Sequence record: PZ445498.1
Length of the DNA: 64,000 nucleotides
Source: a phage
Direction: 5' to 3' (one strand)
Shown: piece by piece, positions 45,693 to 63,826 of the stretch
How the letters are laid out: the number at the start of each line of letters is the position of its first letter
Position numbering within the stretch: the stretch's first letter is position 1
Notes under the pieces: model-generated
Databases searched by the model: none
Told to the model about the DNA's origin: nothing
What the model saw: the letters and a program-made list of their open reading frames with translations, nothing else
Position numbers and translations under genes: made by a program

Positions 45693-46232
45693 TTATACCT
45701 TAAGTTTCTGAAGAGCCTTACACATTTCAAGATTTGGACTAAACTCCAGCATATAGCTGATAGCGTTTAAATCTTGAAGGTTTATTCCAGTCCTGCCGTT
45801 TACAATAACAGAAGGAAATTGATACATCATAGCACCAGCATCATCTAGGACACACCAATGCTTGAGCTTATATTTTTCTACAAAACGTAAAACAGAATTA
45901 CCCCGAGATAAACCACCTCCAGTAAAGTCTGTTGTACCAAGAAAACGATCGATCAAACCGAGTCCGGTCATAATCTGAACGTTCTCCATTTCATTTCGTA
46001 CAGAAAACCATGAAGATACCCCAACAATCATTATTGGGGGTGGCTTAAGAAAGTTCTGAAAAGCCTGGAGTAATGGCTTGTAAACCCAATCACCACCAAA
46101 GAATAGCTTCTCACTATCTGGAGCATGATGGTGAGAGATGCTCGAATTGAGCACCCCATCAATATCCAGGAAAATCACAGGAGTATTACTTATTTCCACC
46201 AGTAGCATCCCACGTCCAGACTTTAACTTCAT
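45693..46232 (-). CDS. HAD-superfamily phosphatase-like protein
   Basis: Motif I FLDIDGVLN (DxDG[TV]); start probably at an internal Met. Confidence 0.5.
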   Translation of the reverse strand: MKLKSGRGMLLVEISNTPVIFLDIDGVLNSSISHHHAPDSEKLFFGGDWVYKPLLQAFQNFLKPPPIMIVGVSSWFSVRNEMENVQIMTGLGLIDRFLGTTDFTGGGLSRGNSVLRFVEKYKLKHWCVLDDAGAMMYQFPSVIVNGRTGINLQDLNAISYMLEFSPNLEMCKALQKLKV

Positions 46233-46371
46233 CAGTAAAAGGAACTGGAACCTTCAATTCACCTTTACCCCACATAACAGATAGGAACAGAGAATAAATG
46301 GTAATCATACCGATTAGGTTGACAAACCATACTAGACCTTTCCAGATACCCTTAAAAATCTTCTTCACCAT
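46186..46371 (-). CDS. small membrane protein
   Basis: 61 aa from ATG 46371 with GGAGGGAG Shine-Dalgarno; one hydrophobic helix (LVWFVNLIGMITIYSLFLSVMW). Confidence 0.4.
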   Translation of the reverse strand: MVKKIFKGIWKGLVWFVNLIGMITIYSLFLSVMWGKGELKVPVPFTDEVKVWTWDATGGNK

Positions 46372-46534
46372 ATTCTCCCTCCTTAATAAGGAACTCTTTC
46401 CATTCTGCTGTATCCTCATAGATAACGCAGAAATCATCACTCTTCCATGAGAAGTCATCAGTAGCAAATTCGAAACGGTAGCACCAACTACCATCTGGCC
46501 ATATTAAAAGATCACACATGCTTTTCTGGGACAT
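46352..46534 (-). CDS. small hypothetical protein
   Basis: 60 aa from ATG 46534 with GGAGGGA Shine-Dalgarno. Confidence 0.35.
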   Translation of the reverse strand: MSQKSMCDLLIWPDGSWCYRFEFATDDFSWKSDDFCVIYEDTAEWKEFLIKEGEYGEEDF

Positions 46535-47363
46535 AAATATTTCCCTCCATAAAAGCTTCAACTTGATCAATAAAGTGTTTATTACCAAAAACTTCGGCAG
46601 CTCCAGCACGCCATACAGTAACACCACGTTTCTCATACTCAAGCTGTTCGTCATAACGAACTTGTGGGTTAACAACCATCATCTTAGTTCCACGACATAC
46701 AGCAGGAAATAATTCCCAGTTGAAGTTGATAACTTGGTTACTACAACCCACCACAATAACCATGTCATTGCTAGTAAGAGTATCAAACAGGTTGATTTGA
46801 CCCATGTACCACGGAGCTGTCTCACCAAAGAACACCACGTTTGGTTTTACCCATTCGTAATCTTCAGGGGCAATCGCAGTATACCCAACATCTTCGATGA
46901 TTTGATTGCGACCCTGACGATAGATCACCTCTTTCAAGTACCCGTGAGCGTGAATTATTTCATCACGAGGGATACCAGCACGTTCCAGAAGGTCATCAAC
47001 GTTAGTAGTGAAGTTCTTCACGCTATCCGCACCATAACGCTGGAACCATTCTGCAATTCGCAGATGGGCAATGTTAGGCTCAACAGTCTGTAGTTCCTGA
47101 CGACGCATGTTGTAGAACTCATGAGTCTTGAGATACAGATCGTTACCATCTTCATCAATGCCAGGGAAACGAGCACTGAAGTAGTTAGGATCATCTTCAC
47201 CACAGAAGCGACGGAAGCCAGCTTCAAAGTTAGGCAAGCTACATACTTCCTCTAGATCGTACTCATCCCACAAGGATTTCCCACTAGCAGTATCAGTACG
47301 GAAAGCACGAACACCACTATCTACACTCAAACCTGCACCACTAACAACGATTAGTCTACGCAT
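46512..47363 (-). CDS. Sir2-family (sirtuin-like) NAD-dependent protein, lacking zinc-ribbon cysteines
   Basis: 283 aa; sirtuin motifs GAGLSVDSGVRAFR, TTNVDDLLERAG, HAHG, VVFFGE and VVGCS align with bacterial CobB; no Cys-x2-Cys pairs between HG and VVFFGE. Confidence 0.75.
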   Translation of the reverse strand: MRRLIVVSGAGLSVDSGVRAFRTDTASGKSLWDEYDLEEVCSLPNFEAGFRRFCGEDDPNYFSARFPGIDEDGNDLYLKTHEFYNMRRQELQTVEPNIAHLRIAEWFQRYGADSVKNFTTNVDDLLERAGIPRDEIIHAHGYLKEVIYRQGRNQIIEDVGYTAIAPEDYEWVKPNVVFFGETAPWYMGQINLFDTLTSNDMVIVVGCSNQVINFNWELFPAVCRGTKMMVVNPQVRYDEQLEYEKRGVTVWRAGAAEVFGNKHFIDQVEAFMEGNIYVPEKHV

Positions 47364-60244: not shown

Positions 60245-60946
60245 ATGAAATTCAAGCCCTTTGGTATGCTGGACATTGAATCTCTAGGTACTCCAGGAAA
60301 TTGCGGTACTACTCATATTGCAATGCCTTCTTTCGCTTTTGTAGCTATGCACGGAATTGATAAAGATCCTGATCTGGTATTCGTTACTCTAGACGTTCAA
60401 GATCAGCTTAATGCGGGTGCTAAGGTAACTGCCTCTACTATTGCATTCTGGATGGATCAAGCTAAAAACAGTCCATCTGCGCTCCATATTATGGAGGCTC
60501 TGAACGGTCGCAATCCAAAACTGATTGCCTTCCGTGATGGTAAGCATCACTGCACTAATGATGTAGGCTCCAATTACGCTGCCTTCTCTATGGCTCAGAA
60601 CATTATGGAATTGTCTCTAGGAGATAATGCTCTGTATTACGGCAATGGCCCAGAGTTTGATATGACTATCTACTCTGCAAATACGTTCCATGCCGGAACC
60701 CATGAAGAAATAGTTCCGTGGAAATTCTGGAACTTAGGTAACGTTCGATCTTTCCGTAATCAGTGGATGCAAGCTGGTTATACTTATAAAGATCTAGAAG
60801 CCGAAGGTGCTAGCTGGGCAAAAGCTAAAATGGAAAAGATGGACACCATTCGTTATGGAATCTATCCTGTGAAGCATGATCCAGCATTTGATGCTTTAGT
60901 TGAAAGTTATTGTGTAGCCGTCATGATCGAAAAAATCAAAATTTGA
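60245..60946 (+). CDS. DEDDh-type 3'-5' exonuclease-like protein
   Basis: 233 aa; Exo I motif LDIESLG and Exo III-like H-x4-D (KHDPAFDALV). Confidence 0.45.
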   Translation: MKFKPFGMLDIESLGTPGNCGTTHIAMPSFAFVAMHGIDKDPDLVFVTLDVQDQLNAGAKVTASTIAFWMDQAKNSPSALHIMEALNGRNPKLIAFRDGKHHCTNDVGSNYAAFSMAQNIMELSLGDNALYYGNGPEFDMTIYSANTFHAGTHEEIVPWKFWNLGNVRSFRNQWMQAGYTYKDLEAEGASWAKAKMEKMDTIRYGIYPVKHDPAFDALVESYCVAVMIEKIKI

Positions 60947-61893: not shown

Positions 61894-62273
61894 TAATTTA
61901 AAAGACTAGTAAATCGGTAGACGAAAGCCCAAGCATCTTACCTCGCAGCAGCGGTTGAAATACGAGGTTAAATAAGACCGCTGACCATACTATAAAGTAT
62001 AATCTATTGGAGATTATGTTTATTACACCAGCCTCTTAAGCTGAACTGTAAAAACGGTCGTTGGTAGTACCAACACAACTTCAAAGATCAACGCTCAAGT
62101 ATGAAAGCTGAAAAGTTAAAAGCACTCAAACTTCTAACCTTCTAAAGCTAAAAGATGCAAAGTATTCGTTGATGATTCAAACCCTAGATCAAAGGTACAT
62201 GGCTCATAAGATATGGCCTGTGGCGCCTCTAGGCTGTTTATCGGTTTACTAGTCTCTCAATTTAAAAATGTAT

Positions 62274-62302
62274 TTGCTAATTAGTTTAGTTTTCTATATA
62301 AT
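62274..62302 (+). promoter_or_regulatory. early promoter
   Basis: TTGCTA-N17-TATAAT followed by AAATTGATGAGA. Confidence 0.65.
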
Positions 62303-62332
62303 ATATTTTTAAATTGATGAGACGAGGCTATT

Positions 62333-62650
62333 ATGATTTTTCATATTCTAATTGATGATGTTCGTGACCTACATGGGATGGATATTATCATTCGAACCCC
62401 CGAAGCCGCTATTGAGTTTCTGAATACAACCGATACCACCGGACATTTCGTTTATATGGATAACGATCTGGCTGTAGATGGTATGGAAGGTTATCAAATT
62501 CTTCGTTTACTCCTAAAATTTGGTCAGAGACCCAAGAAAGTGGTACTAGTAACCTCGAACCCAGTAGCTAAAGAGACCATGCGTAATGATCTCTTAGACG
62601 AAGGGTATCAAGAAAGCCCTAATCGTATTGAGTACGATTGGCCGGAGTAA
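62333..62650 (+). CDS. CheY-like receiver-domain-like protein (stand-alone)
   Basis: 105 aa; ILIDDV (acidic pocket), VYMDNDLAVDGMEGYQIL (phospho-acceptor-like D followed by GM.G), VVLVTS (conserved Thr/Ser position). Confidence 0.4.
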   Translation: MIFHILIDDVRDLHGMDIIIRTPEAAIEFLNTTDTTGHFVYMDNDLAVDGMEGYQILRLLLKFGQRPKKVVLVTSNPVAKETMRNDLLDEGYQESPNRIEYDWPE

Positions 62651-62655
62651 ATAAA

Positions 62656-63105
62656 ATGAAGGCAGCTTTGCTTTTAATAGCTGCCCTAACCTATAGCTTC
62701 AATAGTCATGCGACCTACGACTCAAAGCAGATTGATTGCATTGCAAAAAATATCTACTTCGAAGCACGAGGTGAGGGCACTAAAGGAATGATCGCAGTTG
62801 CACAGGTTACTAAAAACCGTGTTAACTCTGGTACTTTTCCTGATTCTTACTGTAAAGTAGTATATCAGTCTAACCAGTTCTCTTGGGTGGCCAAGAGACC
62901 AAAAGTTGATAAAACCGATGAGGCTTGGCAAGTTGCTAAGAATTTAGCTAGAGTGATATACTACGTTGATTTACCACAAGATCCAACACATGGAGCGTTA
63001 TACTTCCATAGTGGTAAAGATAAACCGTACTGGACAAAGAAGTTTAAGAAAACAACGAAGATTCAAGGCCATACGTTTTACAAGCCTGTGGTTAAGAAAA
63101 CTTAA
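62656..63105 (+). CDS. SleB-like cell wall hydrolase with N-terminal signal peptide
   Basis: Start at ATG 62656 (MKAALLLIAALTYSFNSHA signal-like); Hydrolase_2 pattern NIYFEARGE...AVAQVTKNR...GALYFHS. Confidence 0.6.
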   Translation: MKAALLLIAALTYSFNSHATYDSKQIDCIAKNIYFEARGEGTKGMIAVAQVTKNRVNSGTFPDSYCKVVYQSNQFSWVAKRPKVDKTDEAWQVAKNLARVIYYVDLPQDPTHGALYFHSGKDKPYWTKKFKKTTKIQGHTFYKPVVKKT

Positions 63106-63113
63106 AAAATTCG

Positions 63114-63142
63114 ATTGCTTAAAGCCTTAAATTTCTGTATAA
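63114..63142 (+). promoter_or_regulatory. early promoter
   Basis: TTGCTT-N17-TATAAT followed by AACTGTATAAATTGATGAGAGG. Confidence 0.65.
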
Positions 63143-63154
63143 TAACTGTATAAA

Positions 63155-63346
63155 TTGATGAGAGGAAAGCGAACAATGAAAACCTTAGTAATTATTGGTG
63201 TTAACACTCACGGTATTCGTACTACGAAAACAGTTAAAACTACTAACGTTGCTGAAATTACTACAAATCCTAAGAAGTTTGATTTCGCCAAAGTCTCAGC
63301 AGTTATGACAGAACAATCTTTTAACCAAGCACTGGGAATTAAATAA
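63155..63346 (+). CDS. hypothetical protein
   Basis: 63-aa ORF. Confidence 0.4.
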   Translation: MMRGKRTMKTLVIIGVNTHGIRTTKTVKTTNVAEITTNPKKFDFAKVSAVMTEQSFNQALGIK

Positions 63347-63789
63347 TGGAAGAGAATATTCTAGATGTTTTGCGTAGGGCTTTGCAGGAATCCAAGTTTA
63401 ATGGTTCTGATAAAGAAGTAGCTAAAAGCTACCAGACCATAATCGGAGATCTTCAGCGTGTTGATAAAGACTTCATTACTTCTGAACAGTTTGTATCTTA
63501 TCTAAAAGCTCAACTGAAAAGCATTAATCAGACGAAAGCTAAACTTCACGGTCAAGACCTTGATAATTATAGCTTGCAGTCTGCTCAGTATGAATATATA
63601 CTGAACAAATGGTTACAGCAGTATCTGCCGCCTCAGTTATCTGATTCTGAGATTCGCAAATACTTTGCAGAATTAGTTAAGTTGAATCCTGGGATTACAA
63701 AAGGTATGCTGATGAAAGCGATTAAGGAAGAGTTTCCTGGTCGTTACGACGGTGGCATTGCTGCTCAGGTTGCTGGCGAATTTAATTAA
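63346..63789 (+). CDS. GatB/YqeY-domain-like protein
   Basis: 147 aa; C-terminal GITKGMLMKAIKEEFPGRYDGGIAAQVAGEF resembles the YqeY-family C-terminal motif. Confidence 0.45.
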   Translation: MEENILDVLRRALQESKFNGSDKEVAKSYQTIIGDLQRVDKDFITSEQFVSYLKAQLKSINQTKAKLHGQDLDNYSLQSAQYEYILNKWLQQYLPPQLSDSEIRKYFAELVKLNPGITKGMLMKAIKEEFPGRYDGGIAAQVAGEFN

Positions 63790-63797
63790 AAATTGAT

Positions 63798-63826
63798 TTG
63801 CTAAACGCCTCAAAATTCTGTATAAT
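63798..63826 (+). promoter_or_regulatory. early promoter followed by at least 170 nt with no ORF
   Basis: TTGCTA-N17-TATAAT followed by AGATTCATAAATTAGAGAACAG; no start codon with Shine-Dalgarno before the window end. Confidence 0.6.

What the first reader, a model, noticed from the sequence alone, without database searches (positions are those of the whole stretch)
62333..62650. Stand-alone receiver-domain-like protein
The 105-aa protein has the hallmark spacing of a CheY-like receiver domain: an N-terminal acidic pair (ILIDDV), a central phospho-acceptor-like motif VYMDNDLAVDGMEGYQIL (compare D-L-x-L-P-G-M-D-G), and a VVLVTS strand carrying the conserved Ser/Thr. No output domain or kinase is nearby. 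A phage receiver could act as a phosphate sink or decoy for host two-component signalling.
Basis: partly seen in the sequence, partly recalled or inferred. Interest (0 to 1): 0.5.

Follow-up and report, generated by a model that had tools for sequence, protein, structure and literature searches.

The report
Phage cREC-type receiver-fold protein
This 105-residue protein of a T5-like phage does have a receiver (CheY-like) fold, but it belongs to the already catalogued "cREC" branch, which is never found with signalling kinases and is predicted, not shown, to process cyclic phosphates in RNA-repair or NAD-related phage-host conflict.

Summary

The protein is not a canonical receiver. The only Pfam hit is PF20274 cREC_REC (56 bits, cut-off 27); PF00072 does not match. 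Helices alpha1 and alpha5 are missing, and so is the conserved beta5 lysine. Across 192 non-redundant relatives, D8, D9, R11, R21, D43, D45, T/S74 and N76 are 94-100% conserved.

Orthologues are already named [quoted passage not shown]. The literature describes the family as never linked to histidine kinases and experimentally uncharacterised.

My own sampling of nine lineages found relatives next to a Pnkp-type RNA-repair enzyme, RNA ligase, TROVE/Ro, NAMPT+Macro and tRNA clusters, and never next to a kinase. This phage also encodes SIR2, a HAD_SAK_2 RNA-repair phosphatase, NadR/PnuC and a tRNA array.

The kinase-decoy idea is therefore unsupported. A phosphoesterase or phospho-ligand role in RNA-end or ADP-ribose processing is more likely.

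In passing: the 370-nt gap just upstream looks like a conserved, covarying structured RNA with no Rfam match.

The parts
62274..62302 (+). Sigma-70-type early promoter of the gene: TTGCTA, 17 nt, TATAAT.
   Evidence: Promoter scan, 10 of 12 matches. It is one of 14 exact TTGCT-N18-TATAAT sites in the window, against 0.05 expected by chance. No transcript data were available, so promoter function is inferred.
62324..62327 (+). Shine-Dalgarno GAGG, 5 nt upstream of the ATG.
   Evidence: Read directly from the sequence.
62333..62650 (+). Coding sequence of the stand-alone cREC (PF20274) receiver-fold protein, 105 aa.
62354..62365 (+). D8-D9-V10-R11, the acidic pair after beta1 plus a family-specific arginine.
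   Evidence: D8 98%, D9 98% and R11 94% conserved in 192 non-redundant relatives. D8/D9 align with CheY D12/D13.
62393..62395 (+). R21, directly after beta2. A cREC-specific invariant residue.
   Evidence: 98% Arg. Position relative to strand E18-20 taken from the model.
62459..62467 (+). D43-N44-D45 after beta3. D43 is the phospho-acceptor-equivalent Asp, and D45 is an invariant second Asp at the D+2 position.
   Evidence: D43 100% and D45 99% conserved. D43 aligns with CheY D57 and D45 with N59.
62552..62560 (+). T74-S75-N76 after beta4. T74 is the conserved Thr/Ser of receivers, and N76 is cREC-specific.
   Evidence: T/S74 100% (T 72%, S 27%) and N76 98% conserved. T74 aligns with CheY T87.
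62656..63105 (+). Downstream SleB-like cell-wall hydrolase gene. Its ATG is 5 nt after the cREC stop codon, so the two are probably co-transcribed. I do not consider them functionally linked.
   Evidence: Pfam Hydrolase_2 at 92 bits. In My1 and DU_PP_V the hydrolase has no cREC gene in front of it.
46512..47363 (-). SIR2-family protein in the same genome. An inferred partner acting in trans in NAD-dependent RNA-end processing.
   Evidence: Pfam SIR2 at 78.8 bits. Iyer et al. 2022 describe the SP15-type (T5-like) sirtuin + HAD module as a predicted RNA-repair system. The link to cREC is my inference only.
45693..46232 (-). HAD_SAK_2 phosphatase ('Swiss Army Knife' RNA-repair HAD). An inferred partner acting in trans.
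   Evidence: Pfam PF18143 at 65.9 bits.
60245..60946 (+). Rv2179c-like 3'-5' exoribonuclease-family protein 1.4 kb upstream. This is RNA-related context only.
   Evidence: Pfam PF16473 at 31.7 bits against a cut-off of 27. Public records annotate it as 'metallopeptidase'.

Best explanation
The gene encodes a real, widely conserved, stand-alone member of the cREC family (Pfam PF20274, 'cyclic-phosphate processing receiver').

Shown: the fold is a trimmed receiver domain. It has the five-stranded sheet and three helices but lacks helices alpha1 and alpha5. All family-invariant residues (D8, D9, R11, R21, D43, D45, T/S74, N76) sit in the loops at the C-terminal ends of strands beta1-beta4, where receiver domains bind phosphate and metal. 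It has no kinase partner and no output domain, and it lacks the receiver beta5 lysine. It is therefore not a two-component signalling module.

Inferred: the pocket acts on a phosphorylated nucleotide. The most likely reaction is opening or removing a cyclic phosphate, either a 2',3'-cyclic phosphate at cleaved (t)RNA ends or the cyclic phosphate of an ADP-ribose derivative. D43 would act as nucleophile or phosphate-metal ligand, D45 as acid/base, and the two arginines would replace the missing lysine.

In this T5-like phage the gene is expressed from its own early promoter. It would act in trans with the phage's SIR2, HAD_SAK_2 phosphatase, NadR/PnuC NAD-salvage genes and large tRNA array, as part of a counter-measure to host nucleases that cut tRNA or to NAD/ADP-ribose-based immunity.

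No phage RNA ligase is annotated, so sealing, if it happens, would have to come from the host or be unnecessary.
For: Membership:
- Pfam cREC_REC at 56.1 bits against a cut-off of 27, and no other family.
- Orthologues at 86-88% identity are already named as this family by UniRef and NCBI.
- The nearest viral structure models carry the same name.

Fold:
- AF2 pLDDT 92.4.

Active-site-like conservation:
- D43 100%, D45 99%, D8/D9 98%, R21 98%, N76 98% and T/S74 100% in 192 sequences below 60% identity.
- All of these lie directly after strands E4-7, E18-20, E39-42 and E69-72.

Context in independent lineages:
- A 913-aa Pnkp-type protein (kinase, Metallophos, PNKP_ligase) ends 67 nt upstream of a cREC gene.
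- RNA_ligase and Metallophos in another lineage.
- TROVE/Ro plus HAD.
- NAMPT, Pribosyltran and Macro.
- A CTP_transf_like gene 450 bp downstream.
- KVP40 cREC lies 2 kb from its tRNA cluster.
- tRNA genes lie within 6 kb in about six of ten lineages, and a tRNA-His ends 10-20 nt before the cREC start in two loci.

Same genome:
- SIR2 and HAD_SAK_2.
- NadR-like and PnuC genes 4.4 kb downstream, and a tRNA array from 2.6 kb downstream.

Literature:
- The family is defined and given this prediction in PMC7824862 and PMC9503650.
- T5-like phages are targets of tRNA-cleaving defences (PMC13056530; PMC11464382).
Against: No member of the family has been characterised by experiment (PMC9503650), so the chemistry is prediction only.

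In this phage the gene is not in an operon with any RNA-repair or NAD gene. Its immediate neighbours are a coiled-coil-like ORF and a periplasmic cell-wall hydrolase. SIR2 and HAD_SAK_2 are 15 kb away on the other strand.

The gene's position differs in My1. The syntenic region of DU_PP_V lacks cREC although that phage has SIR2, so there is no strict co-occurrence.

Three of nine sampled lineages had uninformative neighbours. tRNA regions of large phages are also general dumping grounds for small accessory genes, so tRNA proximity is only suggestive.

No RNA ligase or polynucleotide kinase is annotated in the genome, which leaves a repair pathway incomplete. I could not inspect model coordinates, so the clustering of the invariant residues is inferred from topology, not measured.
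Confidence: 0.6

Rival explanations
1. Phosphate sink or decoy for host two-component systems. The protein accepts phosphoryl groups from host histidine kinases or acetyl phosphate on D43 and so drains or confuses host signalling.
For: The receiver fold is present. The acidic pair, the acceptor-equivalent Asp and the Thr/Ser are conserved. Single-domain receivers that act as phosphate sinks exist in bacteria (my own knowledge).
Against: PF00072 does not match. Helix alpha1, the main kinase and HPt docking surface by my own knowledge of RR-HK complexes, is deleted. Alpha5 and the beta5 lysine are also absent. The family is reported never to be linked to kinases, and none was seen in my sampling or in the phage genome. 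The family is spread over phages of unrelated hosts, whereas a decoy would be expected to track host-specific kinases.
Confidence: 0.05
2. Non-catalytic sponge or sensor. The pocket binds, without cleaving, a phosphorylated nucleotide signal such as a cyclic ADP-ribose isomer, a cyclic oligonucleotide or a 2',3'-cyclic-phosphate species. The protein would sequester an immune second messenger, as other small phage sponge proteins do.
For: It is a small stand-alone protein of about 100 aa expressed early. It has an invariant charged pocket with two arginines suited to phosphate binding. The family shows NAD/ADP-ribose contexts. Small phage sponges for immune nucleotides are known (my own knowledge).
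Against: Four invariant carboxylates at a site that is catalytic in the parent fold suggest chemistry or metal binding rather than binding alone. Adjacency to Pnkp and RNA ligase in other lineages points to RNA ends rather than soluble signals. There was no match in the defence-related PADLOC library, though that library holds defence proteins, not anti-defence ones.
Confidence: 0.2
3. A protein-binding adaptor (pseudo-receiver) that modulates a host or phage protein, for example a transcription, RNA-processing or envelope factor, without acting on any nucleotide.
For: Pseudo-receivers that work by protein-protein contact are known (my own knowledge). In this phage the gene is probably co-transcribed with a cell-wall hydrolase, and its local neighbours give no enzymatic clue.
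Against: The residues conserved across 192 distant relatives are exactly the phosphate and metal site, while the surface helices vary. The hydrolase linkage is not conserved. The alpha4-beta5-alpha5 face that receivers use for output is truncated.
Confidence: 0.1

Closest known systems
cREC / cREC_REC family (Pfam PF20274), defined by Iyer, Anantharaman, Krishnan, Burroughs and Aravind (Viruses 2021, PMC7824862; Viruses 2022, PMC9503650)
   Same: It is a full-length match above the Pfam threshold. The size is the same, about 100 aa and stand-alone. It has the same invariant residues. It is of phage origin and has no kinase. RNA-repair and NAD genes are present in the same genome.
   Different: In this T5-like phage the gene is not operonic with RNA ligase, Nudix, sirtuin or 2H genes, as it is in the neighbourhoods used to define the family. 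The candidate partners are dispersed, 4-15 kb away. It has Ala at position 47, where 93% of the family has Gly.
Canonical response-regulator receiver domains (Pfam PF00072; CheY, Spo0F)
   Different: There is no PF00072 hit. Alpha1 is deleted and alpha5 is absent. There is no conserved beta5 Lys. It has extra invariant residues R11, R21, D45 and N76. It has no kinase partner.
HAD-superfamily phosphatases (DxD nucleophile and acid/base motif)
   Same: This is a functional analogy only. An invariant Asp-x-Asp at the end of a central strand next to a phosphate and metal site resembles the HAD motif I arrangement. The active-site similarity between HAD enzymes and CheY is established in the literature (my own knowledge).
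   Different: It is not a member. The DxD follows beta3, not beta1. There is no cap domain and no HAD motifs II-IV. The structural neighbours are receivers, not HAD enzymes. The true HAD enzyme of this phage is the separate HAD_SAK_2 protein.
2H phosphoesterases (LigT, CPDase)
   Same: The predicted job is the same: opening 2',3'-cyclic or 1''-2''-cyclic phosphates in RNA-repair and ADP-ribose contexts (PMC9503650).
   Different: The fold is unrelated and there are no HxT/S motifs. The similarity is in proposed role only.

Membership tests
cREC (Pfam PF20274) | Sequence matches the family profile above the curated threshold. | tested here: met
   56.1 bits against a cut-off of 27, E=6e-15, model positions 2-86 of 88. 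It is the only Pfam hit.
cREC (Pfam PF20274) | Receiver-like Rossmannoid alpha/beta fold. | tested here: met
cREC (Pfam PF20274) | Conserved catalytic-type aspartates shared with receiver domains. | tested here: met
   D8, D9, D43 and D45 are present here and 98-100% conserved in 192 relatives.
cREC (Pfam PF20274) | Never associated with histidine kinases. | tested here: met
   No kinase in the phage genome annotation. None in nine sampled lineages. All 120 listed relatives are PF20274-only.
cREC (Pfam PF20274) | Gene-neighbourhood or fusion link to RNA-repair or NAD/ADP-ribose-processing genes. | tested here: inconclusive
   The feature is met in other lineages: Pnkp adjacency, RNA ligase, TROVE and NAMPT+Macro. 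In this phage there are only loose links: NadR/PnuC 4.4 kb away, tRNAs 2.6 kb away, and SIR2 and HAD_SAK_2 15 kb away. The immediate neighbours are unrelated.
cREC (Pfam PF20274) | Cyclic-phosphate phosphoesterase activity, which gives the family its name. | not testable with these tools
   This is a prediction only. The family was stated to be experimentally uncharacterised as of 2022, and no later paper turned up.
Canonical response-regulator receiver (PF00072) | Matches the Response_reg profile. | tested here: not met
   No hit even at E<=10. One distant relative gave only 17.3 bits against a cut-off of 30.2. hhalign to four canonical receivers gave probability 64.5% and E=6e-5, which indicates a remote relationship only.
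Canonical response-regulator receiver (PF00072) | Acidic pair, phospho-acceptor Asp, and Thr/Ser. | tested here: met
   D8/D9, D43 and T74 align with CheY D12/D13, D57 and T87.
Canonical response-regulator receiver (PF00072) | Invariant Lys at the end of beta5 (CheY K109). | tested here: not met
   No alignment column exceeds 28% Lys, and the C-terminal region has no conserved basic residue. The profile alignment ends before beta5.
Canonical response-regulator receiver (PF00072) | Complete (beta-alpha)5 topology, including alpha1 and alpha5. | tested here: not met
   The model has a 10-residue loop between beta1 and beta2 and ends after a short beta strand. There is an 8-residue gap at alpha1 in the profile alignment.
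Canonical response-regulator receiver (PF00072) | Cognate histidine kinase or phosphotransferase partner. | tested here: not met
   None is encoded by the phage. Use of host kinases cannot be tested with these tools.
HAD phosphatase superfamily | DxD motif after beta1, with HAD motifs II-IV and the HAD Rossmannoid fold with squiggle and flap. | tested here: not met
   There is no HAD profile hit. The structural neighbours are receivers. The DxD follows beta3.

The most novel reading that the evidence does not exclude
cREC is a receiver domain converted into an enzyme. D43 forms a covalent aspartyl-phosphate, D45 (the D+2 position) acts as acid/base as in HAD phosphatases, and R11 and R21 replace the lost lysine. 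The enzyme opens 2',3'-cyclic phosphates on tRNA fragments made by host anticodon nucleases, or the cyclic phosphate of ADP-ribose by-products or immune signals. T5-like phages would then carry a dispersed 'end-healing' pathway without a ligase (cREC, SIR2, HAD_SAK_2, NAD salvage) that hands repaired ends to host enzymes. That would complement their tRNA array as a counter-defence.
Probability: 0.2. Interest if true: 0.6.

Novelty: already known. Interest (0 to 1): 0.27.

Why it matters
As a discovery it matters little. The family has been in Pfam and in two comparative-genomics papers since 2021-2022, and orthologues of this very protein already carry the family name.

Its value is practical. 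cREC has never been tested at the bench, and T5-like phages are easy to grow and engineer. They are also now known to be direct targets of tRNA-cleaving host defences. A 105-aa stand-alone member in such a phage is a convenient entry point for finding out what this receiver-derived domain does. It sits in a genome that also has SIR2, a HAD_SAK_2 phosphatase, NAD salvage genes and a tRNA array.

The residue-level description here gives concrete mutants to make: loss of alpha1, alpha5 and the lysine, and gain of D45, R11, R21 and N76.

The structured element just upstream may be the more original observation from this stretch of the window.

Tried and rejected
- NCBIfam, PADLOC and a PDB sequence search gave nothing useful for the protein.
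- Rfam gave nothing around the gene or in three related loci apart from tRNAs.
- The search for related loci with the diverse alignment failed in both collections because no conserved 7-10-column stretch exists. I used the search for homologous proteins plus look-up of encoding contigs instead.
- The afdb50 fold library was unavailable, so BFVD was used.
- Model coordinates are not exposed, so I could not measure distances between the invariant residues.
- A first conservation script was mis-registered by three residues because of trimming. It was redone correctly.
- The co-occurrence test of cREC with SIR2 and HAD_SAK_2 was uninformative. Within T5-like phages it reflects shared ancestry, and DU_PP_V has SIR2 but no cREC at the syntenic site.
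- I considered a functional link to the co-transcribed cell-wall hydrolase and rejected it, because the pairing is absent in My1 and DU_PP_V.
- I considered filing the protein as HAD-like and rejected it on fold and motif position.
- Literature searches for any experimental work on cREC found only the two defining papers. A paper on DRT9 and the T5 tRNA region does not concern this gene.

Full report

Yes. The ORF listing returns an ATG-initiated ORF at 62333..62650 (+) of 105 aa. Its translation contains ILIDDV, VYMDNDLAVDGMEGYQIL and VVLVTS (DNA). The gene has a GAGG ribosome-binding site 5 nt upstream of the ATG. It also has a TTGCTA-17-TATAAT promoter at 62274-62302. That promoter is one of 14 exact sites of this type in the window, where 0.05 are expected by chance.

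The window comes from a T5-like phage (Demerecviridae, Epseptimavirus). It is about 98% identical to Salmonella phage SLAM_phiST45 and Escherichia phage TrudiRoth/Bas30, where the gene is 'hypothetical protein' bas30_0077.

**2. What family is it?**

Pfam gives a single hit, PF20274 cREC_REC ('cyclic-phosphate processing receiver domain'). It scores E=6e-15 and 56.1 bits against a cut-off of 27, covering residues 4-87. The canonical Response_reg family PF00072 does not appear even at E<=10.

Other libraries add little:
- PHROG 1479 (unknown function) matches at 1.6e-29.
- NCBIfam, PADLOC and PDB sequences give nothing.

Orthologues at 86-88% identity are already named 'Cyclic-phosphate processing Receiver domain-containing protein' by UniRef and NCBI. 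One phage record (HMD-P3) annotates the gene that way too.

**3. Fold**

An AlphaFold2 model built on 17 homologues is confident (pLDDT 92.4, pTM 0.86). Its elements are strands 4-7, 18-20, 39-42, 69-72 and 100-102, and helices 23-32, 53-62 and 77-90.

- Foldseek agrees, with DesR, NarL, GacS-D1 and NtrX at TM 0.55-0.60.
- Among viral models, the nearest are proteins already carrying the cREC name (TM about 0.7). Canonical receivers of giant-virus kinases come lower.

**4. How it differs from a signalling receiver**

The model has only a 10-residue loop where helix alpha1 should be, and it ends without alpha5.

I ran a profile-profile alignment of 59 diverse cREC proteins against four canonical receivers. 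The relationship is remote (probability 64.5%, E=6e-5). The mapping is D8/D9 to CheY D12/D13, D43 to D57, D45 to N59, G53 to G65 and T74 to T87. There is an 8-residue gap at alpha1, and the alignment stops before beta5.

I aligned all 258 retrieved family members to the family profile and filtered to 192 sequences below 60% identity. Conservation at key positions:

| Residue | Conservation |
|---|---|
| D8 | 98% |
| D9 | 98% |
| R11 | 94% |
| R21 | 98% |
| D43 | 100% |
| D45 | 99% |
| G53 | 99% |
| T/S74 | 100% |
| N76 | 98% |

No column exceeds 28% lysine. The receiver lysine is therefore missing. Two arginines, a second aspartate two residues after the acceptor position, and an asparagine have been added.

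All these residues lie immediately after strands beta1-beta4, which is the receiver phosphate and metal site. That placement is inferred from topology, because I could not read model coordinates. From my own knowledge, alpha1 is the principal docking surface for histidine kinases and HPt domains, so its loss argues against kinase interaction.

**5. What the literature says**

Only two papers in the searchable library discuss the family.

Iyer et al. [quoted passage not shown] They describe it as linked to NAD/ADP-ribose-processing genes and RNA ligases, and they posit a cADPr or 2'-3' cyclic-nucleotide-processing enzyme.

Iyer et al. 2022 (PMC9503650) add the following:
- cREC, NADAR and SLOG 'remain experimentally uncharacterized'.
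- cREC is often fused to Nudix.
- cREC sits with sirtuin, tRNA ligase, kinase and MazG genes in V5- and Mydo-type phages.
- A separate sirtuin + 'Swiss-army-knife' HAD module occurs in SP15-type (T5-like) phages.

**6. Independent check of the context claim**

An exhaustive profile search found 406 representatives, nearly all about 100 aa and stand-alone. All 120 listed hits of a second search carry PF20274 only. I looked up encoding contigs for nine diverse members:

| Locus (call) | Neighbours of the cREC gene |
|---|---|
| L013 (46) | A 913-aa Pnkp-type protein (AAA_33 kinase, Metallophos, PNKP_ligase) ends 67 nt upstream |
| L014 (47) | RNA_ligase 5.3 kb upstream, Metallophos 1.3 kb downstream |
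| L010, L015 (44, 48) | TROVE/Ro, HAD and BRCT downstream |
| L008 (43) | Pribosyltran, NAMPT and Macro upstream, HD_4 downstream |
| L004 (41) | A CTP_transf_like gene 450 bp downstream |
| L006, L012, L016 (42, 45, 49) | Uninformative |

None had a histidine kinase.

In the unrelated myovirus KVP40, the homologue (38% identity) lies 2 kb from a 27-tRNA cluster. It is 1.1 kb upstream of the annotated 'RNA-binding protein' KVP40.0300, which carries DUF2828 and DUF7788.

tRNA genes lie within 6 kb of the cREC gene in about six of ten lineages. In L010 and L015 a tRNA-His ends 10-20 nt before the cREC start. This broadly corroborates the published association. I did not establish a base rate, and tRNA regions of large phages collect many small accessory genes.

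**7. Context in this phage**

The immediate neighbours are not informative:
- A 212-aa ORF with no Pfam hit lies upstream.
- A SleB-like cell-wall hydrolase starts 5 nt after the cREC stop codon.
- DUF7616 and a weak YqeY-like protein follow.

The hydrolase pairing is not conserved. In My1 the cREC gene sits elsewhere in the same early region. In DU_PP_V the syntenic 6.4 kb has no cREC at all.

At the genome level the phage encodes:
- an Rv2179c-like exoribonuclease-family protein (60245-60946);
- SIR2 (46512-47363, minus strand) and HAD_SAK_2 (45693-46232, minus strand), which is the SP15-type module of Iyer et al. 2022;
- NadR-like NMN adenylyltransferase/kinase and PnuC 4.4 kb downstream;
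- a tRNA array starting 2.6 kb downstream, beyond the window's 3' end.

No RNA ligase or polynucleotide kinase is annotated.

The SIR2 clade is present in 980 phage records and HAD_SAK_2 in 467. Co-occurrence with cREC inside T5-like phages is explained by shared ancestry, and DU_PP_V breaks it, so this test adds little.

T5-like phages are documented targets of tRNA-cleaving defences. These include bacterial Schlafen, which cuts host and T5 tRNAs (PMC13056530), and PARIS (PMC11464382).

**8. Most likely mechanism**

*Shown:*
- The fold is a trimmed receiver.
- There is an invariant acidic and basic pocket at the receiver phosphate site.
- There is no kinase, no output domain and no lysine.
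- The gene has an early promoter.
- Relatives are embedded in RNA-repair and NAD/ADP-ribose neighbourhoods.

*Inferred:*
- The pocket handles a phosphorylated nucleotide. The most plausible substrate is a 2',3'-cyclic phosphate at cut (t)RNA ends, or the cyclic phosphate of an ADP-ribose derivative produced by NAD-dependent 2'-phosphate removal.
- D43 would act as nucleophile or ligand and D45 as acid/base. This arrangement recalls the DxD motif of HAD phosphatases. That is my analogy, not membership.
- In this phage the protein would work in trans with SIR2, HAD_SAK_2 and NAD salvage.

I put membership in cREC at about 0.95. The 'not a two-component decoy' conclusion is about as strong. The cyclic-phosphate or phosphoester role is at roughly 0.45-0.5. 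The composite statement gets 0.6.

*Rivals:*
- a non-catalytic nucleotide sponge or sensor (0.2);
- a protein-binding pseudo-receiver (0.1);

**9. Novelty and score**

This is an already known family, and the protein itself is already catalogued, although its function is untested. Interest is 0.27.

The main value is that a tractable T5-like phage offers a clean system for characterising cREC for the first time. The residue map above supplies ready-made mutants.

**10. Noticed on the way**

The 439-bp gap directly upstream of the gene is unusually conserved. It is at least 90% identical in about 440 T5-like phage records and is almost never annotated. It is near-identical in HildyBeyeler, where the adjacent cREC protein is only about 52% identical.

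*Folding:*
- On the plus strand it folds much better than shuffles (-100.8 kcal/mol, z=-4.5).
- On the minus strand it folds better still (-116.9 kcal/mol, z=-6.2).

*Covariation:* I aligned it with the divergent copies in My1 and DU_PP_V (53-54% identity).
- The plus-strand consensus structure has 64 pairs, 31 of them with changes on both sides.
- 95.3% of cells are paired, against 34-45% when partners are slid by 1-3 columns. There are 31 compensated pairs against 1-5 in the slid controls, and 0 of 500 shuffles reach the observed values.
- The structure includes a 21-bp closing helix (61903-61923 with 62235-62255) with 13 compensated pairs.
- It also includes a hairpin with an invariant loop TCATAAGATAT, whose stem changes from GGC/GCC to AGT/ACT.
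- An invariant ATCTTA upstream is complementary to that loop.

*Open points:*
- Rfam has no match.
- Only three effectively independent lineages were available.
- The strand is unresolved. The minus-strand alignment fold is similar. Invariant G.U pairs in the closing helix lean towards the plus strand.
- A mobile element with terminal inverted repeats is not excluded.

This looks like a candidate new structured RNA of Demerecviridae, independent of cREC. In My1 and DU_PP_V it abuts the hydrolase gene with no cREC in between.

Noticed in passing
window 61895-62263 (also L020 1543-1930, L003 9724-10119, L040 2993-3387): The intergenic gap upstream of the gene looks like a conserved structured RNA of about 370 nt.

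- It is at least 90% identical in about 440 T5-like phages and unannotated.
- MFE z-scores are -4.5 on the + strand and -6.2 on the - strand.
- Across window, HildyBeyeler, My1 and DU_PP_V, 64 pairs are predicted and 31 are compensated on both sides. 95% of cells are paired against 34-45% in slid controls, and 0 of 500 shuffles match.
- It has a hairpin with an invariant loop TCATAAGATAT, and an upstream ATCTTA complementary to that loop.
- There is no Rfam match.

The strand is unresolved, only three independent lineages were available, and a MITE-like element is not excluded.
   Followed up: partly
window 45693-47363 (- strand): SIR2 (46512-47363) and a HAD_SAK_2 'Swiss Army Knife RNA repair' phosphatase (45693-46232) are separated by one small ORF. 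This is the sirtuin + HAD module that Iyer et al. 2022 predict to be an NAD-dependent RNA-end repair system in SP15-type phages. Most public records call the HAD protein 'hypothetical'.
   Followed up: partly
L020 1985-2806 (Escherichia phage HildyBeyeler); protein P0030; also JLBYU43: In some Tequintavirus phages the same slot holds a 273-aa ORF: an HNH_3 endonuclease domain followed by cREC. The record annotates it as 'intein-containing', with the 'intein' at residues 3-171. The sequence does not obviously begin or end like an intein. It may be a homing-endonuclease gene fused in frame to the cREC gene.
   Followed up: partly
window, 14 sites from 26802 to 63826 (for example 62274-62302, 63115-63143, 63798-63826): There are fourteen exact TTGCT-N18-TATAAT promoter-like sites, where 0.05 are expected. 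On each strand they point in the direction of the local genes. Several are followed by a shared ATAAATTGATGAGA-like leader. They resemble the classical strong T5 early promoters, by my recollection.
   Followed up: partly
L002 8004-8716 (KVP40), L010 6001-6682, L015 6001-6679: In KVP40-like Vibrio phages the cREC gene is followed by a 124-aa ORF that overlaps it by 11-19 nt, a conserved pair. A Ro/TROVE-type gene and a tRNA cluster lie close by. The 124-aa partner has no Pfam family above its cut-off.
   Followed up: no
window 60245-60946 and 63346-63789: Two neighbours appear to be misnamed in public records. The 233-aa protein annotated 'putative metallopeptidase' matches the Rv2179c-like 3'-5' exoribonuclease family (31.7 bits). 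The 147-aa protein annotated 'recombination-related exonuclease' or 'tRNA amidotransferase' has only a weak YqeY-like match (24.9 bits, below the cut-off of 27).
   Followed up: no
window 62059-62075 (- strand): A terminator-like hairpin with a T-run reads on the minus strand, inside the conserved intergenic element. All nearby genes are on the plus strand. This could matter for deciding which strand of the element is transcribed.
   Followed up: no
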